DNA from: Chrysomallon squamiferum
Taxonomy: Eukaryota; Animalia; Mollusca
Direction: 5' to 3'
Length of the DNA: 64,000 nt
Assembly: GCA_012295275.1 (NCBI GenBank)
Contig: CM022671.1
Coordinates: forward strand, 25,110,001-25,174,000
Shown: piece after piece, positions 32,667-61,600 of the stretch
How positions within the stretch are numbered: position 1 is the first letter of the stretch
How the letters are laid out: each line of letters begins with the position of its first letter
The notes under the pieces: generated by a model
Told to the model about the DNA's origin: nothing
Seen by the model: only the letters and a program-made list of their open reading frames with translations
Database searches by the model: none
Program-made: the position numbers and the translations under genes

Positions 32667-32719
<53 letters not shown>

Positions 32720-33238: not shown

Positions 33239-33284
<46 letters not shown>

Positions 33285-33482: not shown

Positions 33483-33513
<31 letters not shown>

Positions 33514-35280: not shown

Positions 35281-35339
<59 letters not shown>

Positions 35340-35528: not shown

Positions 35529-35561
<33 letters not shown>

Positions 35562-36162: not shown

Positions 36163-36410
36163 CAGTGGCGTGCAGAGGGGGGCTAAAGGGGCGGTGGCCC
36201 CGCACATCCAAAGTTGGGAGGCATCCAATCAAAGAAAAGAACTTAATAAATTTGGTTGACTTATATTTAACTTATGTTCATCTGTGTTTAAATATTCAAA
36301 AGATCTTCCTTTCTCATAATATTTCGCAGTACCACGCGTTCTACTTGAGTCTTTGGGGCGTACAATCAAGGAGTTGGCTCCGGGCGTCACCAGACCTCTG
36401 CACGCCACTG
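36163..36410. mobile_element. hAT-superfamily MITE, 248 bp
   Basis: Perfect 16-bp TIRs CAGTGGCGTGCAGAGG (36163-36178) and CCTCTGCACGCCACTG (36395-36410). 8-bp target-site duplication CTGATGCC (36155-36162) / CCGATGCC (36411-36418) with one CpG-type mismatch. No transposase ORF. Confidence 0.9.
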
Positions 36411-36646
36411 CCGATGCCCCATAGAATCGTTCCGGCGGCCCTGAAACAACTTGTAATTGAATGCAACTATGACTGAGATGTTTAACTTATTAATGGGAAT
36501 GACGTTCTATGGCAGGGAAGGAAATCATAAGCGTAACAAATGCAGTATAAATCAATAAATATTAATCAGGCCTACAAGGGTTTTTGGATAGGTTGGTTGT
36601 TTTATTTTTACTTTTTTTTTTTTTTTTATTTATTTATTTATTTATT

Positions 36647-36715
<69 letters not shown>

Positions 36716-36831
36716 ACTAATCTGTCTCTCCGTCCTCCTTAAATTCTAGAATATTCTACGAAATAACATGCCCGTAAGTGTAAAAATCCATCGTTTCTAA
36801 AGAGTAGTTACTGTTTGCTGGTTTGTAACCA

Positions 36832-36854
36832 TTACGTCATACAATTTGACGTCA
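36832..36854 (+). promoter_or_regulatory. Tandem CRE/ATF sites upstream of the HSF-like gene
   Basis: TTACGTCA (36832-36839) and the perfect palindrome TGACGTCA (36847-36854), about 70-90 nt before the ATG at 36921. Confidence 0.55.
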
Positions 36855-36920
36855 GTAAAGAATACACTTGAAATAAAATTCCGCAAATATTACACTTTGT
36901 ATTGTTGTTTTGTCGCTAAA

Positions 36921-38042: not shown

Positions 38043-39619
38043 ATCATTTGTATCACTGTTCCTGACCATGTTTTTCTAAACATGGAAGAAACAAGCATTT
38101 ACCAAATGGATAGGGATCAAAAATCTCTCTCTCTCTCTCTCGTTCTCTCTCTCTCTCGTTCTCTTTCTCTCTTTAAATTTCAAATGAAGAAATTATATTA
38201 GGATTTTGCTTATTAAATATTTATTTTCAGATACATTAAGATACGTGTAAGTGTTTTAATTTCCTAGGGAAATAATTAATGCCAGCTACTAAAAACTACT
38301 AGTGAAAATAGCAAAAATATCTATATATGTATTGTTTTAAAGAAAACCTGGCATAGTAAGTCACTGAGTATGGCCATTTCACTGTAATAAATAACTGGTG
38401 CTAAAAATACAAAAAAAATATAAAACCAATAGAGATATTAGTCATAATCAGTTCAAAAGAAGTTATATTTTAAATACATATTTTTATAACCACCTTGTGT
38501 AAATAAATGTTTTCCAAAATATTTTGTTACTGTTATTATTCCATACATAAGCTAAGTTGTGTTCTCTATGTATATATATAAAGAGATTTTGATTATTATT
38601 TATTATTAACCAATTACTAAAAAAACAAAAAAAAAAAAAAAAAAAAAAAGATTCTATAGACATATTTTGGATACACTGATCTGGTTTGAAAATCTTCCAT
38701 CAAGAGAAAAAGAATTTTGCTAATAATAAAATGAAAAGCCACAAATGTTTATTTGTATTTTTTATCTCCAAATTCAAAATCAATATTTGCAAAGATTGTA
38801 TCAGTTACCTGATGTAATAAGATAATAACAAAAACTGTTTCTATCTGCAAAAACAGGAAACAGATATTAACTGCATGAGATGCTTCATGCAGAGGAAATA
38901 AGACTTTTTTTTCTTCCTAAGATCAAAATATAAAATAAGAATGCTTGGTATGAATGTGAAAAATAATGCAGATTGCCAATATATCTGCATAATCCAGTAT
39001 AATTAAAACAAAATGTTACTATCATATTTTACAAGTTTATTCAAAACTAGATTTTTATCAGTTCAAAGTACAGAACAACTAGTATAATCAGCTGAAGAAT
39101 GTTATTTCAAATCATGATATAAATAAATCCTGTGTATCTAAAGCCTAGTGGTCAACAATAAACTTTTCTTTAACAGAAGAATAAATATTTCTTTTTGAAA
39201 AGTGACGTATGTTTCTTACATCTTCATAAATTCATTTCTGAATTAATTAGGAATATGTTAGTATATTCTGAATTCAATAACCTTCTGACTGTCAGTATTC
39301 ATCCAGCTGACAGGTATTTTGATATAGAAATATATATTTGATATAAGTAAAATTTTGATATTTTGTTAGTGACACAGTTATCATCTATTCTAGACAACTG
39401 GCAACAAACAACACTCCTGAACTTTTCTCTGGATATCAAGGCAGATAAATAGAAGTCTTTCATATTTGCCATTATCATTATATAGCAATACAATAATTAT
39501 GCAAGCGATTTTCCATGTTTTAAACACTGGCTAAAATAACAAGCACAAAGCTATCAATATATGTGAGAAATACTTCATTTCTGACACATGAGTTCCACAA
39601 TGGCTCAACAGAAAAATTA

Positions 39620-42600
39620 TCATGAAGCACTTTTTACAGTTCTCACCAGTCCTTTCAAAATGGAGATTGAAGAACTTCTGTATCCTCCCCCAAAGTGATT
39701 CCTGAAAAAAAATTACAGATTATAAGCTTGCTTTTTTGTCCTGTTCAACCATACTAGAGTGATGTCAGATATTAAATGAAAAATGAATATCAAAGAACAA
39801 ATAAAGTATGTTGCAGCATGCTTATACTAAATTAGAACGCAAATACTTACTGGATAAAGGAATGTTTAATTATTAATTTTAATAGTAAAAATAAGAAAAT
39901 AAGAAAACAATTTTTTAAAAATCATTTTATAATGTTGTTCATGAATGTTTTGATGTTTAGGTATGCATCTTTTATTGTTGTTATCTGTATATGTATTTTC
40001 TTTTCTTTTGTTTTTTCTCTCTCTTGAGAATGGTAATTTCTGTTCAGTAGTTTAATTCTATTTATTTATTTTGAATAATTTCTGTTATTAAAATTTGTCC
40101 CTGAGCTGTTATTTTTTTAAATTTTGTATCTGCTATTGTTGATTATTTTTAGTTATTAGTTTTCTGGAAGGGTTTTATTGTTGTTTTCAAATACCGTTTT
40201 TTTTGGGGGGGTGCTATATATATATATATATAAATTCTTTTTTACTTCATGTTTTTGCCACATTTCAAATTTACAAGAAGAAAGTAAAATATTATTTCTT
40301 ACCAGTGGTTCATGTAATGAAAGAGCTGATAAAGCTCTTTTCTTGATTCATAGCCTGGTGATTTGGGAATCACCTGGAAATAGGCTTTGTAGAAGGCTGG
40401 ACTGAATCCTCCAAAAATGCCTGCTATTGCCAAATCATATTCTGAATGTCCATAAAAACTTGCTGGGTCATAGATAACTGTGGAAAAAAATATACATATA
40501 ATATGAGCTGTATTTAAAATAATGTTATAATTATTTCTGGAAAATGATGATACATGCATGTATTTGGCTGTCATTATTTTTATGTTTATATTGTTATATT
40601 TGAACACTTATTTGATGATATATTTCAACAATTTTTACTATTAATCATTTAATCATTAAAACTAAATGTTGTTATTAAAGCTGAAACCCACAGCTGTCAA
40701 TGAGCTATTCTTATTAATTAGCAGAAGGGAATTATTTTTATACCAACCTTCCCCTAGGTAGGAAGATACGTAGCACAGCCTTTAATAAACTAGTTGAGGG
40801 AACAGGAAATATAGCCCAGAGACCTACTGAGAACATTTGATCCTGCTATCTATTCTACAATTCTTAAAAGCATAGGAATAAAACTTCATTATCCCTATAC
40901 ACAGTTGCATATATGTGCACATGCAGACAGACAGACACACATCATACCAGGGCCTGATGAATCAGCTGAAACATTCCCAGACCACAGATCTCCATGAAGT
41001 AAAGCAGGTTTAACGTTAACATCTTTAAACAGTGTGTCTAGTTTTGGCACAACCTGCGACCACAAACTGCTGGCTTCCCTATCACCTTTCAGATACTCTA
41101 ACTGCTGATCAATCTTTCTAGCATAGAATGTTACCCAGTCGTCTCTCCATGTGTTATCCTGGGGGTAGTAACCACAGCATGTCTCCACATCAAAGCCAAA
41201 TTTATCAACAAACTTTGTGTCCTGTGATCCTTTGTGAACAGAGTTGTCTTTCTTTTTAAGTTCTTCACCAAGCTTCTCGTTCTTCAGATGAAGTCTGCAT
41301 GAAAATGTTAAAAAATAAAAAAGAATAATTTAACAAGAAGATCTAATGTGATGATAGTTAGTTGAATTATTTTTCTCATGAAACAGCCAAAAATATTGAT
41401 GATGTTAGCTTTCCAGCTATATTATTATTATTTTTTTTTTTTTATTAATTGTATTTAGACGAAAATGAAATAGCTTATTTTACATGACACCTTTTTAAAC
41501 ATCAGTTAAACCATATATAACAAAATGCTGATACCACATTATTTGATAAACCAGTTGTGGAATAATAGTTGGAACAGCTAACTGGCATCGTCAGAAGGAT
41601 AAACTGCATAATTCATCTCATCTAAGTCTTGTTTTCTAATCACTGAAACACTTGCACCTTCCCCTAACATTAGCCTATATTAAGATAGAGAGATATTGAT
41701 GTCTTATCAAAAACAGGATGAACAAATAATAAGAATCTCACTTCTTACTTAATTATCCAAAACCCATACAATAAACAATCTGACTAATGTCAAGTCAAAA
41801 CAAAAACAAATTTTAAATATTTTAAGAAATTAAATGTTTATTGGGATTTTCTACAATAAGTTGAATAAATATAAACCTTAAGTACTAAAATTTATATTAA
41901 TTTTGTTTGCAACTGAATTAACAAGTTATAAAATGTTAAAAATATACTTGAATGGTCTTGAAACAGTTAACTCAAAATAAAAGAAAAAAGAAATAATGAC
42001 TGTTATCACCATTCTTTTTTTTTTTTTTTTTTATCCTTCACCATGCTGTCTTCAAAATAATATAAAATTAAATCTTGTAATTACTATTAGGTCATTTAAA
42101 AACAAATATCTTTGCATGTGTGCATTAATGTGTGTATGTATATACAGGCAAACGCTTGTGTCTCTGAATGTGTGCATGTGTGTTTGTCTGTATGAACATT
42201 TACCTTGTTCTTCCATTATTTTAAAACACTGACTTACTGGTTAAGACTGTCATCCTAAATATACACAATTAACCTCTAAACTGACCTTGCTAACTGCTGG
42301 CCCAGAACAGAAGAATATTTAGAAACACTGCCTCTCAAGTCTAGGTATTCCATTGCAATTGCAGCTCCACCACCTGGTAAATTGAAAACCTTCCAAAAAA
42401 GAAAAAAATAATAAAAATAAAATATCCACTAGGGTATAATGGAATATATATAAATTTGATTTTTATGTTTTTAATTATCAAATATAAAAAGCAGTTACAA
42501 AAACAAGAAACAGTAGATAGAGAATAACAGAAATAAAAAAAATTTAACTAACAACATGTGAAATGTGTATTTCTGAAAAAATGAAATATCTGTTATATCC

Positions 42601-42701
42601 AAAAGAAAAGTATTGTGATTTATTTAATTGTGATCTGTAATTATATATCCAAATTCACAAAATAAATCAGTAAGTATATCTACCTAGCTACCTACCTACC
42701 C

Positions 42702-42788
<87 letters not shown>

Positions 42789-43509
42789 AATATCTATATA
42801 CCTACCTACCTATCTATCTATCTTTTTCTCTATCTTTATCTACATCTATTTCTGATTTTCTTACCTTCACTGGTTTGGGAACTTTTACTTCATTAGCTGT
42901 ATAAAGTGCCTCCAAACTTGCAGCTTCTCCGTCAAACATTAGCCGAGCCTTGGAAAATAATTTAAATATTCAAAATGCACACCATCAAATTGTTTTTAAA
43001 GCAAAAAATAATAACAAGAATAACAAGAATAAGAATAAGAAGAAGAAGAAGAAGAAGAAGAAAATAAATAAATTAGTTAAATAAAATCAAATCAAATGAA
43101 ACAGAATCTAGTGATAAATTTTGAAAATTTGAATAATTTAACACTGCTCCTTGATAATTTGTGGGTCTCAAACTGACTTTTTATTCAAATTTTATTTTAT
43201 CATTTATTTATTTATTTTATTTTCATTTGTTTGGGTTTTTTTTTTTTTTTTTTTTATATTATTATTATTATTTAATAATAATAATAACAGCTAAAAAAGT
43301 TAAATTATACAAATACATATTAAATAAATAAATAAATATAATTTTGAAAGTACAAATGTTATTACCTTTGATTCAGTGTTGACTTTAATAAAAACTCTGC
43401 CATGATCAGTTTCATAACCAGACCCCTGACTGATACAGCCAGAACCTCCTCCACCAAATGCTGTCAACGTTTTGGTATTTAGTTCTATCTTTAACAGTTC
43501 TTCATCCAT
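39620..43509 (-). CDS. FN3KRP: Ketosamine-3-kinase / fructosamine-3-kinase family, 311 aa
   Basis: Exons 43366-43509, 42865-42948, 42286-42389, 40948-41294, 40303-40477 and 39620-39701 (936 nt). Motifs [62 protein letters not shown] and [18 protein letters not shown] probable non-coding first exon ends near 43983. Confidence 0.95.
40660..40860. mobile_element. Decayed copy of an interspersed SINE-like repeat; related fragments at about 29840-30060, 41460-41660, 62140-62420 and, reversed, 15690-15860
   Basis: The fragments share ordered blocks (gagagaaaacc..., ctatt...attagcag.aagg, tcc...gacagga, ccttt.ataaac.agt). This resembles, from memory, an abundant gastropod SINE family; not verified by search. 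Confidence 0.4.
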
Positions 43510-43982
43510 CTCATTTCATTAGTTAATTCCTGAATTAACATTAAGAATGCATTAGAAATAAAAACATTGATTTCTGAAAGCATTGAGTGATATTTTTGTT
43601 ACTGAAAAGGAAATTAAAGTATGTCACCTAAAAACAATTCATAATAAATATTAAGTATATAATAGATCTTTACAACTCTATTATCTATATAGATTATGTT
43701 AAATTATTCTATATTTAAACCCAATCATGTTGTCATTTGCATCATTTAAGTCTTGTTGAATAATAATTTATGTTTTGTCTGTACTTTGAGCTTAGATAAT
43801 ATGGACATAAGAAATAATTTAAAATTAACCTGAGAATGATAAATAAATCAAATCAACAGCTCTTTAAATTCTGAAACGGTGGCACTGCTGGTGCACACAT
43901 ACGGATAACATTATTCGAAGCATAGGAATACTGACTGTTCATATAGTTATGTGTTATGTTTTTTTAAATGTAAAGCAATAAC

Positions 43983-44500
43983 CTGAACGCAGTATGATTT
44001 GTATTGCGGCATAAAATGAAATAACATTCATCGAGACGAAATAGTAATATCGTTCACTTCTTTTCGCTGTGCCTTGACATTTTTCTCTTGGTCTTCGAAA
44101 GGATTGAAAATAGGTCTACACCGGTAAAGTTTGTAGGTAGGTGCGCGCGTGCGTATGTGTGTATTCGTGCGTGCGTGGCCATGAAACTATTTAAGAAATC
44201 AGTAATTCTAAATGTTGTGTTCGGTTAATCGTATAACTTAAGGAAGAATGTAGGTGTATCATAAAAGAACATGCTAATAGTGTGAATTGTTCACATGTAA
44301 TTCTTTTTGCTTTATATTGTGCGAGGTTTTAAGTTTTTTAATTAAATTTTACAAAGTATATTTAATATTTATTTCATTTCATTTCATTTACCTGATCAAC
44401 ATAATAACCAGAGTGAAAACCATTTTAGACAATTAACTAAAACAACGGCATAGCTTTATTGTGGTTATTAATTGGCCCTACACCGGTAGTCAGAATCAAA
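43983..44500. promoter_or_regulatory. Bidirectional promoter between FN3KRP and SETD6
   Basis: Head-to-head genes with a local CpG-rich patch in CpG-poor surroundings. Contains an NRF1-like GTGCGCGCGTGCG (about 44141) and a duplicated CTACACCGGTA (44116, 44478). Confidence 0.7.
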
Positions 44501-47500
44501 ATGGAAAATGGAACAGGCAAGCATCAACTTAAAAGAGAAGAAATGCATGGCGATTGTCCCACTAAAGTATCAACAAAAGATGTGGATGATTCTCTTCTCG
44601 AGAAATTCCTCGCCTGGTGTGAAAACAGTAAATTTGGTATTATTGACAAGGTACTGAAATCCAAAGTTTTATGATTCCTGTTTGGGTTCATTTTTGGTGG
44701 AACAATGTAATCACAGTAATATTGACGTTTTGGGCGGATTTTTAAAGAAATGTTTTAATTGATAGTTTAATGTTCACTTTTTATGACAGTATTGTTTGAA
44801 AACCTTTATTGTAGCATTTAGTCATAAATTATATCATTATCTGTTCAAGTTGAGTAAAAGTTTGTTTTGTTTTTAAGACCTGGTTTAAAATCAAATCTTG
44901 ATCTATGCTAATGCTAGTGATACTGATAGTGATAAAGGCAAAGCTGTACCATACTTAGACTAGAACTTTTTTTTTTTTTTTTTTTTTATGTTATTAAAGA
45001 ATTTGGTACATATGAAAACCATCTTTCAGAAAAAACCAAATAAAAGAAATTTAAGATGATCATAAAATTTCTTAATAATGCTTTAATATAGCATAACTTC
45101 TAAAACTGAAAAATAAAGTAAAATATTTAAAATGTATTTATTTATTATTATTATTTTATTTTATTTTATTTTTTTTTTTTTTTGTGGTTTAATCAATTAA
45201 TGTTTTATTTATTATTTTATTTATTTATGTTTTTATTTTACATAAATAACTATTACTCTTATTATTATTATTTAAAATACATGATTACATTGTAGGTTAA
45301 AATCAGCAAGCAGGGTTCCTGTGCTCAGTATGGGATGATTGCTGTAGACAATATTGATGAGGGAACAGTGTTGTTTAAAATCCCACGACCCAATCTACTG
45401 TGTCCTGATACTAGTGGTATTGCAGAGCTACTCAAAAAAGGTATGTTGGTATGTACGTGTTTGAGTGTGTGTGTTGGTATGTACGTGTGTGTGTTTGTGT
45501 GTGTGTGAGTGTGTGTGTAAACAGTTTCCTAGAGTTTTGTTAACAATAAAATATTATCAGTACCACTTTTTTAAAAAGAATTTAAATTTTATTTATTTAA
45601 TAAAATAAATAAATGTCAGAAGAGAATATCTTCAGAACATAAGTAAATACTGCTTATATGTAAATATAATCAAAATAAAATTGTATTACATTTATTTTGT
45701 TTTTTGGGGGGGTTATAGTTGACCTTACTTTTTTATTTTATTCTTTCTTCTTTATTTTTTTTTTTTTTTATTATTATTTTTATTTTTATTTTATTTTATT
45801 TTTTTTTTTTTCAATCTATTGGGAATGTTAACTTGACTAAACTGATATATTGACTTTATAATAGCTTTTTAATTATATTCATGATAACCCACATTAGCTG
45901 AATAAGAATGATATGTTTAATTTGAAATTAAATATACTTTGTACTACTTCAGAGTCAAATGATCTTCAGAGTACAAGTGGATGGGTTCCTCTTTTATTGG
46001 CTCTGTTGTTTGAATACAACAATCCACAATCAAAATGGAGGCCATATTTAGATCTCATCCCAGATTTCAAGGAACTTGATTTACCTATGTTCTGGCCATT
46101 GTAAGTTGTATCAAAAGTGTAAAATAATTATATTCTGTTAAAAAAGAATTTGAATCAATCAACTAGAAATATTGGGCAGTCTTGTATAATACTGTTCCAG
46201 AATATTATTTTGGGATAGAAAGTTCCTGTTACATTGATATATTTCAGAAAAAATGAACTCCATTGCCACAAATCTATACAAAAAATAGAATAAATAATGG
46301 AACAGTAACTTAATATGTGTAAACCTTTGTTGAAGTGTTACCAATCATGACTACTCGTCTAGTGATAATTATTTTAAACTGGAAATACTTTGAGATATTT
46401 TGTTTGTAATAAATGATTTTTTAATGTAATCCAAAATAATCTATTCACTTTTATATATATATATATATGTTTTGAATTTTTAAATATTATTTTTTTATTT
46501 CTCATAATATATACTTTAATGTAAACAAATTACAGGTCAGACAGAGAGAATCTGCTGTGTGGTACTGGTGTCCAGGAATCAGTGGACAGAGACATGGCAA
46601 ATCTCACTAAAGAGTTCAACACATGTGTTTTACCTTTTGTCAGAAAACACCAGCAAGTTTTCAGGTACTGTCACTTTGTATATTTAGAGTACCTTCATTC
46701 TCCCTTTTTCCTTCATTTATATATATATATATATACTTTTTACTTCTTTCTTTTTGTTGTTTTTTTTTTTTTTTTTAAAAATAAGTATAGCCTTAATTTA
46801 CACATTTTTAACATCACTTTTTAAAAATAAAAAAATGTGTTATATTTCTGTTTTGTGATTTTGTTTTGTTTTCATTATTCTTATATGCACATTATTTTTA
46901 TTCCATTTGATAAAGTTTGTTTGTTTTTGTTGTTTTTGTGTAGATATATAGATAGAGAGATATTTTGTTGTAAAAATTAATATATATTATATTGTTTGCA
47001 CTAAAGATTTAATTTATTAATGTTTTTTACTTGGTATATTCCTCATTTTTAGTGCTGCCTGCCAGGATATAGAATTCTACAAAAAGATGGTTGCTTTTGT
47101 AATGGCCTACAGTTTTACTGAACCAGTAAATGAAGACAATGTGGATGATGATGATGTTGATACTGTAATCTCTCCACCCATGATGGCCCCTGTTGCCGAC
47201 ATTTTGAACCATGTTTCAAAAAACAACGCACGTCTTGCTTTTGATAAAGACTGTTTGAAAATGATCACTACAAGAAATATTGTTAAGGTGTTAAGTTTAT
47301 CCATTCATGAATTAATTAAATGTTATAAGCTTTTACTGGATGTTTTGCTTTGTTGATTTCAGTTTGCTATGTTGTTATCTCAATTTAACACAAATTAATG
47401 AAATATATTAATGTAATTTTTTCAATTCATTTTTTTTTTTTTCCTCTTATTGTTTTTTCATTCTTTCAAGTAATGTTATATAAAATTATAATTTTGTATT

Positions 47501-49856
47501 TATAAATGTTCAGATTAAGTATTGTTTTTAAATATATAATTTATTTAACAGGATGAAGAAATCTTCAATACTTACGGACAAGTTTCAAATTGTCACCTGT
47601 TACATATGTATGGTTTTGCAGAAGTATATCCAAACAACCTGTATGAAACGGTAACTAGTTGTGTATTCCATTGATGTATTATTTGAATTTGTTTAATAAA
47701 ATGTATTAAAATATTATTCATAACTTAATGAAAATTATTAAAATAATTATATCATGAAGCAGCTGAATTCAAATGACAAAGTTGAAGAAATGTAAGTGTT
47801 CAAAAAAAAAGTTTATATTTGTTTTTTAATAGATAAATGTGCATATTTTCAGTTTTAATGGAATAATTGTAGATTTCTTCAACTCACTTACTTATTAACT
47901 TTCAGGGAACATAAATGATGATATGTTTTAAAAGTTCTTACCATCTTGCTAGTACTTTCAGTTTTATATTTTCTTTTCAGTTAATTAAATTTCTCTTTAT
48001 TTAAAACAGGTTGATATTCCTATGAAAATGGTTTTTGAGGCAGCAAAAAGTTTACAACACAATAATGACAGTTTACTACAAGACAAATGGCAGTTCCTAC
48101 AAGCTATGGTAATATCACAATGTACATACTGATACAACAGAAAAAAAATAAGTTTTTTTTTAGAATTTCAAGAGGTTTTACTTTTTTGATATTTATTTCT
48201 CAGGTTAACAGATCTTTATCAGTTTCTCACATTTAGTCCTCATAGTAAATCATTCAGCTGTAGCATGTATCTAGTTTTGTCATTATTATATGTATATACA
48301 TATATTTAATAATAGAAAAGATAAATGAAGGACTTAGAATACAGATGAATTCATGAACATTTTTCTGTATCAATATGATTATTTCCAGGACCTTTCCTCA
48401 GATGATGTGTTTGTTGTTGGAATGGATGGCATCCTCACAGAAGATGAGATGTTTAACACCCTCAAAGTATGTATAATATAGATTGTTAAATAATTACTGT
48501 TCTTGTAAATTAATTATATGTTGTCACTGAGAAAAAAAGTAGGTATTGGCAGAGAAAACGAGCAGTTTCCTGTTACTTTTTGTATTTATTTTTTATTTAT
48601 TTATTTATTTATTTTTGTTTAGTATGCAAAATTATGTAAGTTGTGCATAATTATTACAGTATTTAAATTGTTATGACATAACAGTGGGCCCATTGATTAT
48701 GTCTTTTAACTTGCAGAAAAATAGGAAACATAATTGGTATTTCTGTTTAGATGTGATGATCCATATCATCTTTGAATGCATCCTAAAGATTCATAATAAA
48801 AGTTTCTTGAGACTGATGATGTCTTCTCACTTGTACAATTATTGTTATATTTTTTCTTTTCATTATTTTACAGTTCATTATAAATTTCCTTTAAAAGGAA
48901 ATTGAACCAAATTATCATGATTTTGATATTGTACATATCTGCTGATTTTTATTTAGTTTTTAATATACATTGTGTATTTTTATCTAAAAAAAATAATAAT
49001 ACTTTTTTTTTTTCCTCTAGGTTTTGGTGATGACAGAAGAAAAGTTCAAGGATCACAAAGAGAAAGAGGGTTGGAGTGATGCAGACAGCAATGACAGTGA
49101 AGATGAATCCCTTGGATTTGGTATGTCATTAATATACAATGAATTACTTATTACTTTTTAGGGATATCAATATATATTACAATATTCATTTTCACTATTA
49201 ATTTACTTTTAATATGGCCAGTGAAATAATGTTTATATTATTTATTTATTTTTGTAAACTTCATGTAAAGTTTTTAAGTATCAGGATATTTTGCTTTAAC
49301 TATTTATTTGATATAATGATGGACATATTAATAATACTTGCTTACTGATACTTATTATTGTAGTTACTTTGTTTTGCAAAAAGTTACATTCTTTTTACAG
49401 ATAAAATGGCAAATCTTCCAGATGACTGGAAACTGGTTCTTGCAAGGTAATTTGATATTTTTATCTTAAAATACATAGATAGAAAATATTGCTGTTTCTT
49501 CAGTTTTATTAAAGAATAATTGATTTAAAATTACCAGTGTATGGTTTTAATTTTTTTTTTTTTTTTCAAAATTCAATTATTTCAGTTTGTTTAGCATTTT
49601 GCTTGTGAAGAAAAAGTATTTAAAATAGACTGATGTTAAAAAATACATCATAGCAAGTGCTTTGTATCATTTCATACTTTATATTATTAGTTGTGCCAAA
49701 GCCAGTTTGACCAGATATAAAACCAGCCTTGCTGAAGATGAAGAAACTGTTTCTTCAGGCAAACTCAGAGATCTTCCTAGAAGACATAGATTTTCTTTTC
49801 TCACTTCTTACAGTCAAAAGAAACTGCTGCAGAAAATTATCGAATCGTGTAGATGA
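44501..49856 (+). CDS. SETD6: N-lysine methyltransferase SETD6, 464 aa
   Basis: 11 exons: 44501-44650, 45296-45440, 45953-46100, 46536-46664, 47053-47287, 47552-47650, 48010-48108, 48389-48466, 49021-49120, 49401-49446 and 49691-49856 (1395 nt). Motifs [48 protein letters not shown] and [29 protein letters not shown] at 49873. Confidence 0.95.
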
Positions 49857-52309
49857 CACTCAAGAAACAACCAATAAACATTTTTTTTTCTAAACATTTG
49901 GTCAGTTTTCATTTTTGCAATGGAGTGTTATTGATTTATTGGGGTTGCCTACATGAAGACTTCCTTTTTTTTACTGTCAGATTTGGAATCAAAGCTACTA
50001 GAAAGATAAATATATAAAGCAAAGCAAAAAAAAAAAAAAAAAATGAAATTTGAAAATGAAATGTTTATATATCTGTAAAAAGTAACATTTCAAATTAGTA
50101 TTCAACTCAGTAGGCTTTGCCAGGCTCCCCTTTTCATCATTTATTATTAAAATTAACTCAAAAATCATTTTTTTTCTGAAACTATTAAAAAACAAAAAGG
50201 ATGTTAATTTTTAAACATTTTAATCGTTTCATAATTTTACATATTCAACATCAAACAATATACAGAACAGAGAACAGATTTCCTATCCCAAATTAAACAT
50301 TTGCAAATCAACGTGTTAAAAGCTTCTCTTTTTTTTTTCTATAAATCTGATATTCAGTTCATGTATATACTAGAGGTTTAATAAATAAGTAATAAATATG
50401 CAAAATAATCTCAGAAATGATGCATATCTCAGTGAAATTACTGAGGAAAAGCATGATCAGACATTCCATAAAAAAATCAATTGCAAAAAAGTTCTGCATG
50501 ATTCATTTCACTTCAAACAATCATAAATGCTATCATGGGTTCCATTCACAATTTTGTTCTTAATGCCACTGTTTAATTTAAATTGTTTTCCAACATACTT
50601 ATGCTTTAACATGAAAGAATAAAGCCGTATATGCTCAAATTATAGCCATTATTTGAAACGTAACATGCAATTAAACAGACAAATTTTTAGATATTCAAGA
50701 TAAATCTGTAATAAGCTGCTTTGATTATCAAAACGGTTGTAATTTATGTAATTTTCAACCAATTAAATAAACATTAAAATATTTCAGAACAAAAGATATG
50801 CAGCAGACAAAAAAAAAAATCATTGACTAGTATCAGCATTTGAAATAGATAGTTTAATCTTGAATGAAAAAAGCAGCAAAGTTTCATAATATAAATCCAA
50901 AACATGCACTGATCCTGCTTAAGTTTTAAAATAATCTGTTGACAATTTCCTCAATTAAAATAAGACCTCTGCTTTGAAAGCACAAAATTAAAATCACCTT
51001 TTAATAAAAAACCATCATTTACAATTTGATGTCTATCACCAACATTTGAATCTCAATATAACAAACCTATTATAATTTTTGTTTCTGATGATGCCAATAT
51101 ACAAAAATATCACTATCTCAAAATGTTTTCTGATTACTTTAACATTCTTGTATCAAATGATATATCTTACAATAAATTACATTATAAATAAGTAGTCACC
51201 TTATGTAATTAGCACTACTAGATGATCAAGTTTCAAATTAAAAAATGGGTATCAGACAACTGTAATATCAAATGGTAAAATTTTGTTAATCTTACCAGCT
51301 TTTAAAGTAGAAAGAAAAAGAAATTCTGTCTTTGGATAAAATATATAAATTTCATAAAAATAACACTTTAATATGGTGGTATAAGTGGTTTTAGAAATGT
51401 GGATATAATCACAAAATGTCATTAAATATATTTTTAAAAAAACCTACTCATTCTCAGTTTAAATGTGCATTTTCTCTGCTTAAGGAAGCATTAAGAAAAT
51501 ATAAAAATCTGATTAAAAAGATAATATTTATGACAAAGAATCATTTCTGAAATTTGAAAATACAAAATAACAGAATTCATTTGAGATGTCTTTTCTTTCC
51601 CCCAGTAACATCTTTTGAAATGTAAAATAAAAATTAGTGCAATATTTTGTTGAAAAGTACAAACTTTCATTCAGTTTCTGAATTAATTAATCAGATGATT
51701 CATATGGTGACTGGCAAATGTATTACAATAGCACAGAATGTAAATATCACAACATAACACTGTGGGAAGACAACTTGGGCTGTTGCCAAAAATAGGTAAA
51801 AAGCATACAATTGTGTAACTAACAAAACTTTCTCTTTATACAGCACTGAAACTCACGTTTCAGTGAAAAATTTAATATTAGTAAAATTCTGAATATCATT
51901 TAGGAAATAACCTAATACTGAGTTTGTTAAAAAGAATACAATCAGCTGAATTTTTTTTATGTTAACGGAATTTTTTTTTAGTAATATATTTTTAATGCAC
52001 TGCTTCTATTAATTCAAGGTCTTCTTTTTGCCAAAAACATTAAATGTAATACATTTCCTCAGTTAAAGCCAAGTTTATTTCTTTTTGTGTGCTGTTCTTG
52101 TTGTTATAAAATTGTGATGGTTCTCTTTCTTGGCACATTTAACACACACATCAAACTTTCAATACTTCACAACAATTACTGCTGTTCTGTCATTGCCACC
52201 AGATTAGATTAAACTGCTGGATGAAAACACTTGTCACAGATTATGATGGATTAGCACATGGGGCACAATGTAACCACAGATTCGTTTAAAAACCACACTT
52301 ATCAACTTT

Positions 52310-55300
52310 TCAATCTTGTTCAGTTTTCTCAGTTTTTGGCACTGCATCACAGTCTGTCTCCTTATCAGCTGTATTGCTAGCTTTTGTATCACCGGAATCT
52401 TTCACAGATAGTTCTTCAAGTTTTTCAGAGATTTTATTTGCACCCTCTTCTTTTACCTCTGCATCTCCTCTTGAATCATCTTTAACATCATTTTTATCTT
52501 CAACTCCATCTGAACATTTAAAAAAATAATAATAATAAATTAAAAAAATAATAAATAATTTCGTTTTCTGTAATACTATACAATGCCATATAATTATTCA
52601 GTATTTTTTCTTTTGCACTTCTCAATCAAACTGATTAGCAATATTTACAGAAAAATATATTTTAAATTCAGAATGTTTTGGCTAAAGATGTCATTTAAAT
52701 TCAGATGTAAATTATGACTCTATAATGTAAAAAATGTTTTGAGGAAATTAATTTTGAAAGCGACATCTAACTTACTTTCATTTATTTTTGTGTTCTTCAA
52801 GACTTCCTCCATAATTAGTTTGCTTTCTTCAAACTTTTCTCTGAATTTCATAGCATCTGCAAACAATCAATATATTAACAATATAAAACATATTCTCAAA
52901 CGTAATTCAGCCACAGTATAAAAAAAATTTTTTATCAGCATCTTAATATTTAAAATAATTTAAAACATTTTTAAAAATACATGTCCAGGCTGCTTTAAAT
53001 TTTATTAAATATCTTTCAAAGTCGTTAAAAGAAAATTGAAAATTCTTACTTTCTGCATTAGCAAATCTGATGGCTAGCAACTCTGTTTTCTTTTCTTCAT
53101 CAGCAAAATCTGCCGTAGTTGTCCATACCCAAGCCTTGTCACTTCCACAGTTTGGCTTTAAATCCATAAATGGCATCACTATATAAATTCAAAAAAAATG
53201 TAAAATATAAATAAAATGTTGAGTTAAGTTGTAATTGGATCAGTATCACATTAATAGGTATTTCAACATCTAAAAACAGTTTTAATGAGAAAGAAAGCCT
53301 ATTCAATGTCAGAGAAAGTGACAATCATCAAATGAGTCAGACCGCCCGTCAAAATTCTCATCATACATGAAATAAAGAATACAAATGTCAGTTGAATTCA
53401 GTTTAACACTGAGAAAATAAATAATGTATGGGTAGGAATTAAATTTTCTTCAGAAATTATTTATTTATTAAAATAACATCTTCCGAGACTGAATGTTAAT
53501 ATCCATCTCTATATTAAAATTTTGAATCTTCAATTTACTGCTTATTTAATTACGATACAGATTCTGTTAGGAACAAATTAAATAGAAATATCTGCTGTAA
53601 CATTTTAGTGAAAGCAAACCTAACAAGCTGTTTCCTACTTTTTACAAATTTTCTGAGGAACATTTTCGGATCAAAAATATACAGTTTAATGTTAAATTAT
53701 AATACTTTTATTATTATTATATAACTTATTATTATTCAAATTTTTGAATTCATTAGTTAATGTTTTCTAATGTTTTTTTCAGTTTAGCAATTTATTTCTA
53801 ATATGTTTATCCAATAATTTCAATAAAATTAATAAGACCCTGAGAACAAAAACTGATAATTTTGTAAAATGTTTGTCAGAGGCAGTGACAGTCATCAAAC
53901 GTCAGACCGCCCGTCACATGATCTCATCACACAGAATATTTACAAACTTTGATGCTGATTACTTTAATAATATAAGCATCATTCAGTCTTAGTAATATAG
54001 ATAATTTCTTTCTAACAAAAGTCTATTTTAGGATCCTAATTACACATGATCTATTTGGTTTTTACTTTAGAACAATATTTAATAATAATAATAATAAATA
54101 AATAACAAAACAGATAACCAACCCAATTAATTCAAAAAAACAAAAAAAATAATAATAATAAAATGAATATTACACTTCTATTTTAGAACTGAATGATTGA
54201 CAAAATCAGAGCATGCTGATATGAACCACTCCTGTGAAAATCACACTCTCTGACAAAGGCAGGGGACATGTCTGACAGAATTTTATTTTAGAACTGCTAA
54301 TTAAATTATTTATAAAAAAAAAAAATAATTTTAAATTCTATGAAATATTTGTCAGAGGCAGTGACAGTCATCAGATTGTCAGACCGCCCGTCACATGATC
54401 TCATCACACAGATAATTTTGAAACGTTTATCACTTCATATGTCTTACATCTACAACTATTACACTTCAGAGTTAAGAAAATGGATAAATATAAACTGAAG
54501 GTAATGAAATGAAACTGATGTTAAATAGATGTTTCTATTGGAGTATTTTATTTGCTATTTTATTTTTAGCAACACTAACTATGAATATTTTAGTGTTTTT
54601 GTAGCAAAATGAAAGCACAACTATTTTTTTTACATTAACTGAATGGAAATTCAAGGTTTAAACCATGTTACCTCCAATGTCAAGATCAATTATTTTAGTT
54701 CTGTTCAATGCTATTCATTATGTTGTTGGTAAACTTCGAAATAAATCAGTTTCTAGGTCAGACACAAAAAGTTGATTTTATTTCTGCTTGTAATATTCAT
54801 CAATTTTAGCAGACTGTCCATCACATGATCTCATCATGCAGTTTTACAATTTTCTACAATGTCTCCTGTTTGTGTTATTTTCAGGAGAAAATAATTTGAA
54901 GAACTTAATTCCAAATAATTCAAAGATGTACACAATATTTCATGTTCTATGAATTACATGATACTAATTTTGTTTGTATTGAAAATAATACCAATTCTAT
55001 GAATTGGTGAACTTCAGTTTGAGCATTTAAATTTAATACAGTAATAGAGTATCTAAAATTTACTCCTAAAATGTGTTCTTTAATCTGCCAGTAATACATT
55101 TTAAAAATACATCTCTGTTCACAGCAAAGAACTGACATCTTTAAACTGATTATAATGAAAGTTAACTAAACAGAAATCTGATTATTTACAAAGGATATTA
55201 AGTTGTGTTTTTGAACTAATTTAAAAAATTAATAATACGTCTTTAAATAGAGAGATAAATTCTGTCTTTGGGATTATAAAAAAATTCTGGTAATGCTATC

Positions 55301-55529
55301 CAGAAATTGACTTCAGAAGTCATCAATACAATAAATGTTTATGCTGCTATTTCATTAGAATTTTAATCTAAAAGAATGAAGAGACGGCACATCAGAGAAT
55401 GTGACATTCATCAGTAACATCAGACCGCCCGTCACAAACATTTTCATCCTCTGTACCAATTCCAATAAAGGATTATTTTCATCAAAAGTAATTTAATAAC
55501 AAGTCATTTAAATAATAATCCTTACTATC

Positions 55530-55574
<45 letters not shown>

Positions 55575-57534
55575 ATGCTTATTTTTCATTTAACAGCAAC
55601 AATTTCCAAAATAAATCACATACAAAAAGTAAGGACAGAGTAGTTAAAAACCCAAGAGACATTCTGGGAACTCAAGATCTGGCAAACAATTATGCAACAA
55701 TTATTAAGCCAGACCACCAAGAAATATTAATTCAAGTTATAGAACAACGAAAATAATACCATAGTGATTAGCACAGAGCTTCAGTGTTTTATCCCTCCTC
55801 ATTACGATTCTTATCATTCGTGTAACTTTGTGTTTCATCAGCTTTACATCTCCAGTGCCTCGTTCTTTCCATTCAGCCGGCTCAGAGTCTTTATCAAATC
55901 TAAACAGCTTGGCTCGCCTGTTAAAATAAAACCAGTTAGAACACATCCCCAGAGATAAACTGAAGATAAAATGTACGTTTAAAAAAAAACCTGTGAAAAC
56001 TTTGCTCGTTATCTTTATCTTAAATTATAATAAATTTCATCTTCATTTTATTGGTTACTTCAAAGTCGAGTTAATTTTCATTGAGGATTTATTTATTTAT
56101 GAACATAAGTAGTTCATCAAGAGGAATCAGGTCTGCTGCATTTGTCAGTTAAGTGTTATGTACATAAAATGTTGCATTTTGGGGTAGCAGCTTTTATTTG
56201 AATATCACAAAAACTGTAACTGTGTAACTCATTTTGGTGATTGAAAATTTTTCAGAAGTAAAAATGCAGTAAATGTTAACTTCAGAATGTCTCACAGTTT
56301 CAGTATTTCTTCTTCGTCTTCTTCCATATTTTTTAATTCAACCTGAGGTAAATTCACAACTGGTTCAAAATGAATATCTGGTGATTCAGGAACTTCTTCC
56401 TGAAAAATATTTTAGAACACTTACAAAAGAAAAATTGAAGAACATAAAATATAAAGTATTACATTTGCTTTAAACCAAGAGAGAACAAAAAAAATTTAAA
56501 ATATAAAAATTTGGAGTATTGAGCAAAACATGGGATACTTGTAGTTAATGGTTTGCAGATTAGCAACAATATTTCCTCCCAGTATGAAGGTTCTCACATG
56601 TCTAAGCCATTTGAGGACGTATTAAAACAAAACAAAAAACAAAATGTCCAAATGTCCATGAAATAAACTGACATTTCTGTTATATTAATATACAAAGTTT
56701 ATAAAATTACTGTAGCTCAAAGTATCTAAAACTAAAAAAGTAAGTATGATTCCAATGGATTTCAAACCATATGAATAGACTAGAGGCAAATTTCATTTAG
56801 TAATCTTGCAGTTTAGATCTGCACCTTTTTATCAAGGGTTTTAGTTTCACAAAATGTTTTGCTATAAAAATAGTATAATTTATTGACTGTTGTGTTTATG
56901 AAGATATATAACCACCCTATGCTTTTTCAAATCAATCAGTATGAGTATTTTCTTTTCATTTGTAACAGTTGTGTGTTTATGTGCATTTAACGGGTTAAAA
57001 TTAAATTTAAACTTCTTTGAAATATTTGATTATTTCTGTTCGTCTTTTTAGTTTCCAGTGCATCAGATTGATATTTCTTCAGTATTTTAATAATGCTATT
57101 AGTATTACCATAAGGATTTTTAAAACCAATGAATATTTCTGATAAACAGTCTTGAACGAAAATGGCATCTACTTATCAGATGAATCACATTCAAACACTG
57201 AATCCGTGTTGGTCGGTCAGTTTTAATACGGCAGATCTGAACTACCATGTGAAAAAATCTTAGCAAAACATTCAATAAAATCACTGCTGAAAAGCATAGA
57301 TCTAAATTTTAAGACTATCAATAATTCAGTACAAAACATAAATAATTAGTATTGTTCTACCAAAATGATCTTGTATATTTGTATAACGGTTTTCTCGGCC
57401 TGAGCCTCCAACTTGTTCAGTTAATAAACGAACATTTTGCGTCAATCATACACATTCATTTTTCATTACTTCTATATTTTAAGAAAAACAAATCATTCCA
57501 ATAAGAAAAAGACAATAACCTTGTCATCTGCCAT
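52310..57534 (-). CDS. RANBP1: Ran-specific GTPase-activating protein / Ran-binding protein 1, 228 aa
   Basis: Exons 57520-57534, 56296-56399, 55760-55917, 53050-53178, 52776-52856 and 52310-52509 (687 nt). Single RanBD with [50 protein letters not shown] and [13 protein letters not shown]-terminal NES-like [10 protein letters not shown]. Confidence 0.96.
53305..53369 (-). ncRNA. SNORD43: Box C/D snoRNA, U43/SNORD43 (snR70)-like, copy 1
   Basis: Minus strand ATGATGA(C)-GAATTTTGACGGGCGGT-CTGA(D')-CTCATT-TGATGA(C')-TTGTCACTTTCT-CTGA(D). The guide GACGGGCGGT is complementary to the universal SSU rRNA sequence ACCGCCCGUC. Same strand as host RANBP1, in intron 3. Confidence 0.88.
53871..53935 (-). 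ncRNA. SNORD43: Box C/D snoRNA, U43/SNORD43-like, copy 2
   Basis: Minus strand GTGATGA-GATCATGTGACGGGCGGT-CTGA-CGTT-TGATGA-CTGTCACTGCCT-CTGA. All four boxes are canonical. Confidence 0.88.
54346..54414 (-). ncRNA. SNORD43: Box C/D snoRNA, U43/SNORD43-like, copy 3
   Basis: Minus strand GTGATGA-GATCATGTGACGGGCGGT-CTGA-CAATC-TGATGA-CTGTCACTGCCT-CTGA with a short terminal stem. Nearly identical to copy 2. Confidence 0.88.
54790..54840 (-). pseudogene. Decayed U43-like snoRNA copy
   Basis: Retains box C, the GATCATGTGA spacer and C'. The guide has mutated to GATGGACAGT, D' to CTGC, and no box D is present. Confidence 0.7.
55386..55457 (-). ncRNA. SNORD43: Box C/D snoRNA, U43/SNORD43-like, copy 4
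   Basis: Minus strand AGGATGA (variant C)-AAATGTTTGTGACGGGCGGT-CTGA-TGTTAC-TGATGA-ATGTCACATTCT-CTGA, with terminal stem GGTACA/TGTGCC. Confidence 0.8.
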
Positions 57535-58682: not shown

Positions 58683-61600
58683 ATGGAAGTAGATAAAAGT
58701 TGCAACAATGCATCAGCAAATGACTCCACGGAACATAAAGAAGATGACAAAACAGAGGAGAATAATGTAACAGATCCATTTCAATATCTGGATCGAGGAG
58801 AATTTACATCAGAAAAATATAAAATTGAGATTTCAAATCTACCTAAACAATGCCGAAAACACTGTTATGCAGTAAGAAGCTTTTGCTTCTTTCTTTTTTT
58901 CTTTCTCTCTTCATACACACACTGGCACACGCATACAAATTTGCACACATAAGCACGAACATATCCTGGTAAAAATCATAAATACAAAACACAATTTTTA
59001 TCTTATGAAAGAAAAAGATTAAACATGAAAAGTTACTGAACTGAAGTAAATACTACTACCTAGTTGAACAATGAAGTTCCCAGATGACATAATCATGTAT
59101 TAATTTTCTGTGTTTCAGGAGTTGAAGAAAAGGCTGACAAAAACTCTGCATTTGAATCCTCACAAGATAAAGCCAATGGAGAGAATGCCATTTGCTTTCG
59201 TCACATTCAGGTGGGTTTTTCAAGAAAGGAAGTAAAGTGCATTTAGAACCATAATTTATCAGGTATGATTTTCATATGCACTTAACCCAAAAATTAAAAT
59301 AAAGTGATAAAACTTGGTAATGTGTTAGTTGCATATGCCCTGTCACTTTGGATAATGAAAAGAACACAATTTGTCATATCACACGCCACTATGTGTACTG
59401 CACCTGCAAATGCAGATATACTGAAATCACATTTTGGTGCACTGATCCAACATTATCCAAAAACAAAAGGAAGAATTTATCCTGGGTAACAGTCCAGGCT
59501 TAACAGAAAAATAAACATCACGAAGCAATGGGACAGCTTAAAGCCAACCAACAGATATACAACATCACTCAGTACTTTCGTGTTCATGACAGTACGATAT
59601 CAAGACTCCGAAAACCCATAAACCAAACTGGGCAAAATAGGTATTTAGTGATGTCATATCGACATCACAGGATCAAAAGTGCTTTATGTTTAGCCCCTGC
59701 TTTGCAGCAAACCACAGTACTACAATTCATGCTGAAACTGTCCATAACCATCTCCATGCAGCTGGATTACAACCAAGTCGTCCTGTTGTAGCTGTTCCCC
59801 TGACAGCGCGTCACATTGAGGAACATCTGAGATGGGCCAGAATACACCAACACTTTATCAGGCTTTATTCACAGACAAATTCAGGTTTTGTGTTCAGTTT
59901 ACGGATGGTAGGTGTCACATGTGGAATCGATGGAGAGGATGATATGATGCACACAAAGTCATTCAGCATGACCCATATTGCTGTGGCAGCGTCATGGTGG
60001 ACGTAAAACAGATCTCGTTTTTATTCACAGAAACATGACCGCTCAACGTTACTGCAACGAGATCATAACACCAGTGGCCATTCCATTCCTGCAGCAGCCT
60101 GGTTTTCCGTTTCAACATGGCAATGCTAGACAACATACCACTAGGCTAACTACTAATCTTCTTGAGCGGGACCACATCCAAGTGTTGAACTGGCCACCAA
60201 AGTCCCCTGACTTGACCATATTTGAGAAGGGCATTTGAAAACCATCCCCATAATCTTAATATCCATGACGTGCAAAATAACACTGAACTGGGAATAGAAC
60301 ACAATTACTGTTCCTGAGATTAATACTCTCATTAGAATCATGAGACAACAATGTACTGCTGTCATCAGTGCTGTCAACACTCATTGTTGAGCCTCTCTCA
60401 CCATTTTGGTAGATGTACCCCTCCATGTTTCATCAGCTGACATTACAGAAACAACATTGACATCATGATAAAGTGTTACTGCTGGCTACATTCAGAAATG
60501 AAATAATGTGTACAAATAAATTCAACATCCAATCAGGTTGTATTTCATATCTCATACGTAACTGCTAAACTTGTTTGGCACAATATATATATATATATAT
60601 ATACTAAAAATAAAAACAAGAAAGGGTGCACACTTACATGTAGTTATATTTTATTCAATTAATTCTTGATGTTTTCAGATAGAAATAATAATAATTATTA
60701 TTACATGTTGCTAGATGTGAAGAAGACAGAGAAGATGCACTGAAGAAAATTAATGGTCACAAGTGGAAAGAATCTGTTCTTGAAGCAAAGGTTTAGTAAA
60801 TATTATCTTTTCAGTCATATATCCTGCATACTGATTATGTGACAGTGGATACAGGGCTATTCTTATTGATAAAAATTATTTTTTTTGGTGTTATATATAT
60901 ATCACACACACACACACACACACAATAAACATACTATATATTTATTATGTATATTGTGTGTGTGTGTGTCCCTTAGTCAGGAGATAATTTGACTTGGCCT
61001 TAATAAATAAGTCTTATGGCTCAGAAAACCAAAAGGATTCAAAGTCAACCTACCTGAAATAAGTGTATCAAATCCCAAGACTGAGCACAGTATTAAACTG
61101 TTCAATTAGTATTTTTTAAATTTTGGTAAGTTAATAATTCTGTTGTTTTTACTCAAATACAAGTTTTAGGAAAATTAGCATAGAAGAATTTATTTCGACA
61201 TGATTTGATTAATTAATAACATAAAATTTTCAATAATAATTATTGTTTGTTACCAACTTTTCTATTTATTTGTTGTTGTTTTTTTTTCCCAGAAAGCCCA
61301 ACCATTGGCAGATCCTTTGCTTAAAAAGAGAAAACAGAAAGGTTTATATTTATTTTTCAATTTTGATTATTTACATTTACATAATATTAAACACAATATA
61401 TTTTTTATAAAATGAAAGACAAGTAATAGGCTTTGTTTCATTTAATTTTATTAAATATATGTTTTTTCTTTAATTATCCAGATTTATTTTTTAACATTAA
61501 ACAAGTTATTATTTAATAATACATATTTATCCAACATATTAACTGAAAACTGTTTACAAGTGATTTAAAACATTTGAATGAAATATTTATTTATCTGGCA

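What the first reader, a model, noticed from the sequence alone, without database searches (positions are those of the whole stretch)
53305..55457. Five tandem U43/SNORD43-type C/D snoRNAs in one RANBP1 intron: a new host gene and a polycistronic intronic array
Seen: four intact copies (53305, 53871, 54346, 55386) and one decayed copy (54790) of an approximately 65-nt unit on the RANBP1 strand, all inside intron 3 (53179-55759). Each intact copy has boxes C, D', C' and D and an invariant D' guide GACGGGCGGT, while the spacers vary, which points to purifying selection. Established: by the D+5 rule the guide targets the first C after G in SSU rRNA ACCG[C]CCGUC. That is the decoding-centre residue equivalent to E. 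coli m4Cm1402, yeast Cm1639 (snR70) and human Cm1703 (U43, hosted in RPL3), and vertebrates normally carry one snoRNA per intron. Inference: only copy 1 is near the 3' splice site (about 126 nt). The others lie 0.7-2.2 kb away and would need endonucleolytic release from a polycistronic intron, or unannotated intervening exons. Dosage of this guide would be tied to a cell-cycle-regulated Ran-pathway gene.
Basis: partly seen in the sequence, partly recalled or inferred. Interest (0 to 1): 0.85.

Follow-up and report, generated by a model that had tools for sequence, protein, structure and literature searches.

The report
U43 snoRNA cluster in RANBP1 intron
One intron of the RANBP1 gene, likely of a snail, holds four intact and one decayed copy of a well-known small guide RNA predicted to methylate the ribosome's decoding centre, a clustered layout already known from flies and worms, and the guide family carries a predicted internal helix that hides part of its guide.

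Summary
Observation confirmed. Four intact box C/D units and one decayed paralog lie in sense orientation in RANBP1 intron 3 (53179-55759); 3 of 3 RNA runs splice that intron out as one 2581-nt GT-AG piece. The guide matches SSU rRNA at the E. coli C1402-equivalent site, so these are U43/SNORD43/snR70-type guides, although they score below Rfam's cut-off. How the copies are released is not shown; no cleavage hairpins or cryptic exons were found between them, and cell-cycle dosage coupling has no support here. Side result: a covarying internal helix pairs the first three guide bases with the sequence after box C' across eukaryotes (0 of 500 shuffles reach it; also visible in published fungal snR70 rows), which would leave a guide of about 7 nt. 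Verdict: real, new member of a known kind, interest 0.38.

The parts
53305..53369 (-). U43-type C/D snoRNA copy c1 (box C 53364, guide 53350-53341, box D ends 53309)
   Evidence: Rfam SNORD43 30.8 bits, E 4.9e-4, gathering score 45; independent model E 6.3e-11
53871..53935 (-). U43-type C/D snoRNA copy c2 (box C 53930, guide 53915-53906, box D ends 53876)
   Evidence: independent model E 5.5e-7; 95% identical to c3; flanking 8-bp external stem predicted
54347..54412 (-). U43-type C/D snoRNA copy c3 (box C 54407, guide 54392-54383, box D ends 54352)
   Evidence: independent model E 2.9e-8; Rfam SNORD43 17.6 bits
54783..54841 (-). decayed paralog c4: boxes C and C' intact, three guide changes, D' and D broken
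   Evidence: nhmmer E 2.6e-6; 10 of 12 substitutions against c3 are G/C to A/T; not found by the independent model at E 5
55386..55457 (-). U43-type C/D snoRNA copy c5 (box C variant AGGAUGA at 55450, guide 55433-55424, box D ends 55392), 6-bp terminal stem
   Evidence: independent model E 1e-7; Rfam SNORD43 19.4 bits, snoZ17 33 bits; fold
53179..55759 (-). RANBP1 intron 3, 2581 nt, GT-AG, host of all five copies
   Evidence: joint 53178/55760 in contigs of 3 of 3 RNA runs
55675..55715 (-). predicted 17-bp hairpin in the 5' part of the intron, upstream of c5; significance doubtful
   Evidence: z -3.55 for 55635-55730; best of 254 windows at z -2.9
57520..57534 (-). RANBP1 exon 1, coding part (ATG at 57534)
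   Evidence: joint 56398/57519; 228-aa frame
56296..56399 (-). RANBP1 exon 2
55760..55917 (-). RANBP1 exon 3
   Evidence: Pfam Ran_BP1 E 8.4e-21; best single-domain PDB match is Ran-specific GTPase-activating protein, E 1.4e-20
53050..53178 (-). RANBP1 exon 4
   Evidence: Pfam Ran_BP1 E 3e-9
52776..52856 (-). RANBP1 exon 5
   Evidence: 81-nt piece between joints; frame
50287..52509 (-). RANBP1 last exon and 3' UTR as far as RNA contigs cover it
   Evidence: table 8

Best explanation
The intron holds a same-intron cluster of four intact U43/SNORD43-type box C/D snoRNA genes and one decayed copy, which are likely cut apart after splicing into separate guides of about 60-70 nt that are predicted to direct 2'-O-methylation of the 18S rRNA cytidine equivalent to E. 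coli C1402. Shown: the units, their boxes, the single spliced intron, the match of the guide to SSU rRNA, and conservation of guide and boxes against diverged spacers. From established knowledge: fibrillarin snoRNPs methylate the base paired to the fifth nucleotide before box D', and intronic snoRNAs mature from the debranched lariat by exonuclease trimming. Inferred: the copies arose by local duplication after U43 moved into a broadly expressed host; because trimming from the two ends alone cannot separate loaded copies, at least one endonucleolytic cut per spacer is needed, by an enzyme not identified here. Predicted from covariation: the first three guide bases (GAC) and 1-3 bases before them pair with GUC.. 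just after box C', so the open guide is about 7 nt.
For: Motif count against shuffles; RNA joints; E. coli numbering, fifth base = C1402; the same decamer in an Rfam-confirmed eukaryotic SSU rRNA, duplex -22 to -27 kcal/mol for intact copies against -12.6 for c4; model from 30 non-window homologs finds 4 of 4 intact copies at E 6e-11 to 6e-7 and nothing else below E 0.8 in 64 kb; c1, c5 and c2/c3 are only 75-81% alike yet share a perfect guide, while spacers have lost homology and c4 has decayed; the most distal copy c5 has the best terminal stem; precedents for same-intron isoform clusters.
Against: No mature small RNA is shown for any copy; the runs are contigs of ordinary cDNA libraries. 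Best Rfam score 30.8 bits against a cut-off of 45. No spacer between copies has a hairpin clearly above shuffles (7, 5, 2 and 2 of 30 shuffles fold as well), so no cleavage signal is identified. In run X5 one contig changes box C of c1 at its second base (53363) and another changes the first base of box C of c3 (54407), which hints at relaxed selection on single copies. The organism's own 18S was not available. RNAalifold predicts no consensus pairs for the helix.
Confidence: 0.6

Rival explanations
1. One guide per lariat: usually only one copy on a given intron molecule is loaded with core proteins, and exonucleases trim through the unloaded copies from both ends, so no endonuclease is needed; the extra copies raise the chance of loading.
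For: No cleavage hairpin between copies; standard exonucleolytic pathway as reviewed; explains selection on every copy.
Against: Not tested; efficient loading of two copies would give trapped longer RNAs. No data on occupancy.
Confidence: 0.17
2. The stable product is a sno-lncRNA: trimming stops at c5 and c1 and leaves an RNA of about 2.1 kb capped by C/D snoRNPs with further guides inside.
For: Two C/D snoRNAs in one intron give such RNAs in mammals (PMC11028025; PMC10557570); the geometry here fits.
Against: Intronic RNA contigs are patchy and at depth about 3-4 against 44 for mRNA in X1, similar to intron 1 (contig depth is weak evidence); spacers are not conserved among themselves; the intact inner copies c2 and c3 are not needed for end protection.
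Confidence: 0.1
3. Rare alternative or nested splicing puts each copy in its own small intron, using cryptic exons in transcripts that NMD removes.
For: Four acceptor-like sites in the intron (55368, 54495, 54250, 53409), two of them 24 and 102 nt behind a copy; contigs drop rare forms.
Against: 4 sites against 1.9 +/- 1.4 in 500 shuffles; no strong donor pairs with them; 0 joints inside the intron in 3 RNA runs.
Confidence: 0.07
4. Only c1, the copy near the 3' splice site, is productive; the others are unexpressed leftovers kept alike by recent duplication or gene conversion.
For: Distance preference of vertebrate C/D snoRNAs for the 3' splice site (recalled, not read here); c2 and c3 are 95% alike; c4 has decayed.
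Against: c5 and c2/c3 differ from c1 at about 20% of core positions yet keep guide, boxes and both helices, c5 with changed pairs in its terminal stem; it is c1 whose box C is altered in X5.
Confidence: 0.06

Closest known systems
SNORD43/U43 (Rfam RF00221) and yeast snR70, clan CL00059
   Same: Box layout, D' guide, target site (Cm1703 human, Cm1639 yeast, m4Cm1402 E. coli; PMC2794176 passages; PMC8053127 passages).
   Different: Human U43 is mono-intronic in RPL3; chicken has two copies in separate introns (PMC2653536 table row); here four intact copies share one RANBP1 intron. Scores fall below the Rfam cut-off. No D'-C' extra pairing loop as in snR70.
Drosophila intronic snoRNA isoform clusters (Psi18S-525a-j in Arpc2, Psi28S-3316a-e in dom, C/D Or-CD11a-c in RpL28) and C. 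elegans K12D12.6-8 in top-2
   Same: Several snoRNAs, often isoforms, classed as intronic clusters in protein-coding hosts (PMC11028025 supplement rows).
   Different: Most fly rows seen are H/ACA, and fly C/D loci are described as one per intron (PMC3089462 passages); this is a four-copy C/D cluster of a conserved rRNA guide in a likely mollusc, with spacers of 0.4-1 kb.
SNORA77B/ACA63B in vertebrate RANBP1
   Same: RANBP1 as snoRNA host (PMC1687206 passages).
   Different: That is a single H/ACA RNA in intron 5; no such match was found in the other introns here.
sno-lncRNAs (15q11-q13, SLERT, LNC-SNO49AB)
   Same: Two or more snoRNAs in one intron.
   Different: Described from mammals; no long product is shown here.

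Membership tests
Box C/D snoRNA | Box C (RUGAUGA) near the 5' end and box D (CUGA) near the 3' end | tested here: met
   Box D 4 of 4; box C consensus 3 of 4, c5 AGGAUGA
Box C/D snoRNA | Internal D' and C' boxes with an antisense element before D' | tested here: met
   4 of 4 intact copies; c4 fails D'
Box C/D snoRNA | Terminal stem closing the kink-turn | tested here: met
   Predicted 6-7 bp in c5, 4 bp plus extension in c1, short stem plus flanking stem in c2 and c3; whole-unit z-scores are weak (-0.04 to -2.0)
Box C/D snoRNA | Accumulates as a small RNA bound to fibrillarin | not testable with these tools
   Only contigs of cDNA libraries were served
SNORD43/snR70 clan (CL00059) | D+5 target is the SSU cytidine equal to E. 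coli C1402 | tested here: met
   Decamer starts at E. coli 1398, fifth base C1402; present in eukaryotic SSU locus L122; the animal's own 18S was not available
SNORD43/snR70 clan (CL00059) | Rfam RF00221 gathering score of 45 bits | tested here: not met
   30.8, 19.4 and 17.6 bits for c1, c5, c3; c2 not listed for this family. 0 of 20 other U43-like loci reach it either, best 35.2, so the cut-off excludes divergent members
SNORD43/snR70 clan (CL00059) | Similarity to homologs outside the window | tested here: met
   Model from 30 non-window units finds 4 of 4 intact copies; those units were chosen by the guide pattern, so the test is not independent of the guide
Intronic snoRNA cluster | Two or more snoRNAs on the sense strand of one host intron | tested here: met
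   Single 2581-nt joint in 3 of 3 RNA runs
Intronic snoRNA cluster | Release of single snoRNAs from the common precursor | not testable with these tools
   No small-RNA or degradome data
RNase III-processed polycistron (Rnt1/Pac1 type) | Cleavage hairpins between the units | tested here: not met
   No inter-copy spacer clearly beats shuffles; one hairpin upstream of c5 is marginal after 254 windows
sno-lncRNA | Stable long RNA with snoRNA ends | tested here: inconclusive
   Patchy low-depth intron contigs; contigs cannot show ends

The most novel reading that the evidence does not exclude
U43/snR70-family snoRNAs, these four copies included, mask their own guide: an ancient helix between the 5' part of the guide and the sequence after box C' is kept by compensatory change from fungi to animals, so that the decoding-centre methylation is specified by an open seed of about 7 nt (or needs strand exchange), a structure absent from the Rfam model and not found described in the searches made here.
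Probability: 0.5. Interest if true: 0.55.

Novelty: new member of a known kind. Interest (0 to 1): 0.38.

Why it matters
How animals separate several C/D snoRNAs that share one intron is not settled in the reviews read here; this locus offers four sequence-distinguishable copies plus a dead control in one RNA-confirmed intron, so release, sno-lncRNA formation and position effects can be told apart with copy-specific probes. The target methylation affects reading-frame and stop-codon accuracy in yeast. The predicted guide-masking helix would refine how one of the oldest snoRNA families recognises its site and would improve a family model that now misses most non-vertebrate members. The organism is not a common model, and the layout itself has precedent, which limits the surprise.

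Tried and rejected
Rfam at gathering score: 0 hits in the window. No genome was held, so copies elsewhere in the genome and the animal's 18S could not be checked. No RANBP1 match in any fetched locus by tblastn, so intron 3 of other molluscs or annelids was not seen. Protein search with exon 3 was crowded by RanBP2 and gave no taxon; the ORF at 34425-34931 gave no hit; NCBIfam gave 0 of 5 for the TRMT2A pieces. A second guide before box D was rejected: the stretch varies between copies and its best duplex on a partial 18S is weak, -10 to -13 kcal/mol. The 13-nt match of c2, c3 and c5 to bacterial 16S was rejected as a target: the extra bases are the 5' strand of the internal helix. A new target for c4 was rejected: its changes are mostly G/C to A/T. 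Further snoRNAs in the other RANBP1 introns: none by Rfam or by a C/D motif scan. Loose ends and short intronic matches are AT-rich and were not used. Polymorphism in X5 was too sparse for a selection test. Huang et al. 2005 on Drosophila was not held and is known only through PMC3089462. Earlier-findings searches for U43 by words and by sequence gave nothing.

Full report
1. Observation. The decamer GACGGGCGGT occurs four times on the minus strand (53341, 53906, 54383, 55424) against 0.09 expected, and 0 of 100 shuffles reach four. Each sits in a unit of 55-59 nt from box C to box D with D' CUGA, C' UGAUGA and D CUGA; box C is RUGAUGA in c1-c3 and AGGAUGA in c5. A fifth unit (c4, 54783-54841) is found by a profile of the four at E 2.6e-6; 10 of its 12 substitutions against c3 are G/C to A/T, three hit the guide, and D' and D are broken. 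Core identities: c2/c3 0.95, other intact pairs 0.75-0.81, c4 0.64-0.71; none of 15 spacer pairs scores above its shuffles.

2. Host. Exons 3 and 4 match Pfam Ran_BP1, the best single-domain structure match is Ran-specific GTPase-activating protein, and six exons give a 228-aa frame. Five runs hold the stretch; four were laid. Contigs of 3 of 3 RNA runs join 55760 to 53178 (2581 nt, GT-AG) and show the flanking introns; no RNA joint falls inside intron 3. Contigs drop rare forms, so this shows the main mRNA only. Intronic contigs exist at depth about 3-4 against 44 for the mRNA in X1, in intron 1 as well as intron 3. The divergent gene from about 58683 matches TRMT2A of Gigantopelta aegis (94% over 49% of a 67-aa query, E 6.8e-16), so the animal is likely a gastropod; that gene's exons were not checked against RNA.

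3. Family and target. Rfam gives no hit at gathering score; in E-value mode SNORD43 scores 30.8 (c1), 19.4 (c5) and 17.6 bits (c3) against 45, and other C/D families score similarly through the boxes. The cut-off is narrow: 0 of 20 other U43-like loci reach it (best 35.2). A sequence-only model from 30 non-window units finds 4 of 4 intact copies at E 6e-11 to 6e-7 and no further copy; those units were picked by the guide pattern. The complement ACCGCCCGTC starts at E. coli 16S position 1398, so the D+5 base is C1402; it is also present in a eukaryotic SSU rRNA locus. Equivalence to yeast Cm1639/snR70 and human Cm1703, and effects on frameshifting and readthrough in yeast, are from PMC2794176 (passages) and PMC8053127 (passages).

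4. Release mechanism. Box D ends lie 130, 697, 1173 and 2213 nt from the 3' splice site. Four acceptor-like sites occur, against 1.9 +/- 1.4 in 500 shuffles, with no strong donor partner. The best 90-nt fold of each inter-copy spacer is matched by 7, 5, 2 and 2 of 30 shuffles; only the stretch before c5 beats 30 of 30, with z -3.55, but it is the best of 254 windows at z -2.9. So no release signal is identified. Selection on c5 and c2/c3 as well as c1 argues that distal copies are made, hence separate release is favoured; one guide per lariat, a sno-lncRNA, cryptic splicing and a single productive copy remain open. Against strict selection: run X5 has a contig with box C of c1 changed at its second base (53363, depth 37.1 of 37.1) and one with the purine of box C of c3 exchanged (54407, 24.8 of 52.1, possibly a cross-laid paralog), and a further change in D' of c4 (54810).

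5. Internal helix. Of 53 non-redundant units (49 from loci, 4 from the window, chance matches not removed), 36 have GUC shortly after box C'; it is complementary to the first three guide bases, and the pairing extends 5' of the guide by 76 pairs in all against 31.4 +/- 6.1 in 5000 partner shuffles, maximum 57. The pattern did not ask for this. On a structure-blind alignment of 35 rows (30 of the 49 units, chosen by eye to drop likely chance matches and near-duplicates, plus the 5 window copies) the 7-pair helix has covariation 0.389 against 0.174 +/- 0.024, 0 of 500 shuffles, slid controls at most 0.154; the pair next to the guide is C-G 11, U-A 9, A-U 7, G-C 1, U-G 1, unpaired 5; the outermost pair is not supported (29 of 34 unpaired). 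Shuffles ignore relatedness, and two of five measures were not above shuffles (76 and 258 of 500). RNAalifold gives no consensus pairs; single-copy folds give the helix in c1 and c5 (0.94-0.98), c2 (0.46) but not c3. Independent support, read by eye from the 40 fungal snR70 rows in the supplement of PMC3116282 (parts 14-15 as text): 17 of 17 budding-yeast rows have GACC before the guide core and GGUC after C', an insertion matched on both strands, and the other 23 rows keep a complementary pair of other sequence while losing rRNA complementarity there. That block carries no brackets for this helix in the text, but the paper names snR70 among RNAs with conserved structure and colours or underlines cannot be seen, so it may be partly anticipated. 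PMC3511168 (section 7) found no conserved structure for the clan with archaeal sR12. Searches showed no paper describing it; most subscription papers are not covered.

6. Comparison with what is known. RANBP1 hosts ACA63B/SNORA77B from human to fish (PMC1687206 passages; PMC11028025 supplement rows). U43 is in RPL3 in human and macaque; in my loci U43-like units lie between RPL3 exons (L007) and near RPL18, RPS3A, RPS8 and a proteasome subunit gene. PMC3511168 (passages) describes continual movement of snoRNAs among broadly expressed hosts, which is enough to explain RANBP1 without a cell-cycle link. PMC11028025 (passages, section 3 part 1, and 60 of 423 'intronic_cluster' places in a supplement that was cut when stored) lists ten Psi18S-525 isoforms in Arpc2, five Psi28S-3316 in dom, three C/D Or-CD11 in RpL28 and three C/D in C. 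elegans top-2. PMC3089462 (passages) states that fly C/D loci are one per intron while H/ACA loci cluster, so a four-copy C/D cluster is the less usual kind. Tandem U43 pairs occur in 3 of the 120 loci (L014, L020, L046); in L020 both lie before an RPS3A exon with no coding exon seen between them. A search for mollusc snoRNA organisation showed nothing on this locus (listing only). PMC12508059, PMC10557570, PMC5824354 and PMC6554986 were read as passages. The preferred distance of C/D snoRNAs from the 3' splice site is recalled, not read. Earlier AI notes of this scan report similar arrays in other genomes; they were not checked.

7. Verdict. Real and correctly annotated; a new member of a known kind. 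Interest 0.38: the layout has precedent, release is untested, and the helix is a well-supported but computational side result.

Noticed in passing
window 57534 (-) and 58683 (+): RANBP1 and a TRMT2A-like gene lie head to head about 1.1 kb apart, as in human and mouse where they share a bidirectional promoter (PMC6554986 passage); suggests an old conserved gene pair.
   Followed up: partly
window 53305-55457; loci L001-L120: Covarying helix between the 5' end of the U43 guide and the sequence after box C', across eukaryotes.
   Followed up: yes
L020 190-450: Two U43-like copies 194 nt apart before an RPS3A exon in an AT-rich contig (worm-like gene layout, by eye), a second likely same-intron pair; further pairs in L014 (138 nt apart) and L046 (263 nt).
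   Followed up: partly
window 55675-55715 (-): Strand-specific 17-bp hairpin near the 5' end of intron 3, single copy in the window; marginal after multiple testing.
   Followed up: partly
window 54783-54841 (-): The decayed copy still forms the internal helix through changed pairs; may be chance, as all changes run towards A/T.
   Followed up: partly
window 59490-60400: Broken reading frames that look like a Tc1/mariner transposase remnant inside a TRMT2A intron (read by eye).
   Followed up: no
window 31259-49890: Neighbouring genes: a sulfotransferase-domain gene (+, Pfam E 2.5e-4), an ORF at 34425-34931 (-) with no Pfam or protein hit, fructosamine kinase (-, E 2.8e-23) and a SET-domain gene (+, weak Pfam match, SETD6-like by recall).
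   Followed up: partly
window 55888-56324: An RNA contig of run X2 (depth 8.8) covers most of intron 2 with a 51-nt replacement at 56124-56176: a retained intron or DNA of another allele.
   Followed up: no
Rfam RF00221: The family model misses non-vertebrate members: 0 of 20 U43-like loci reach its cut-off.
   Followed up: yes
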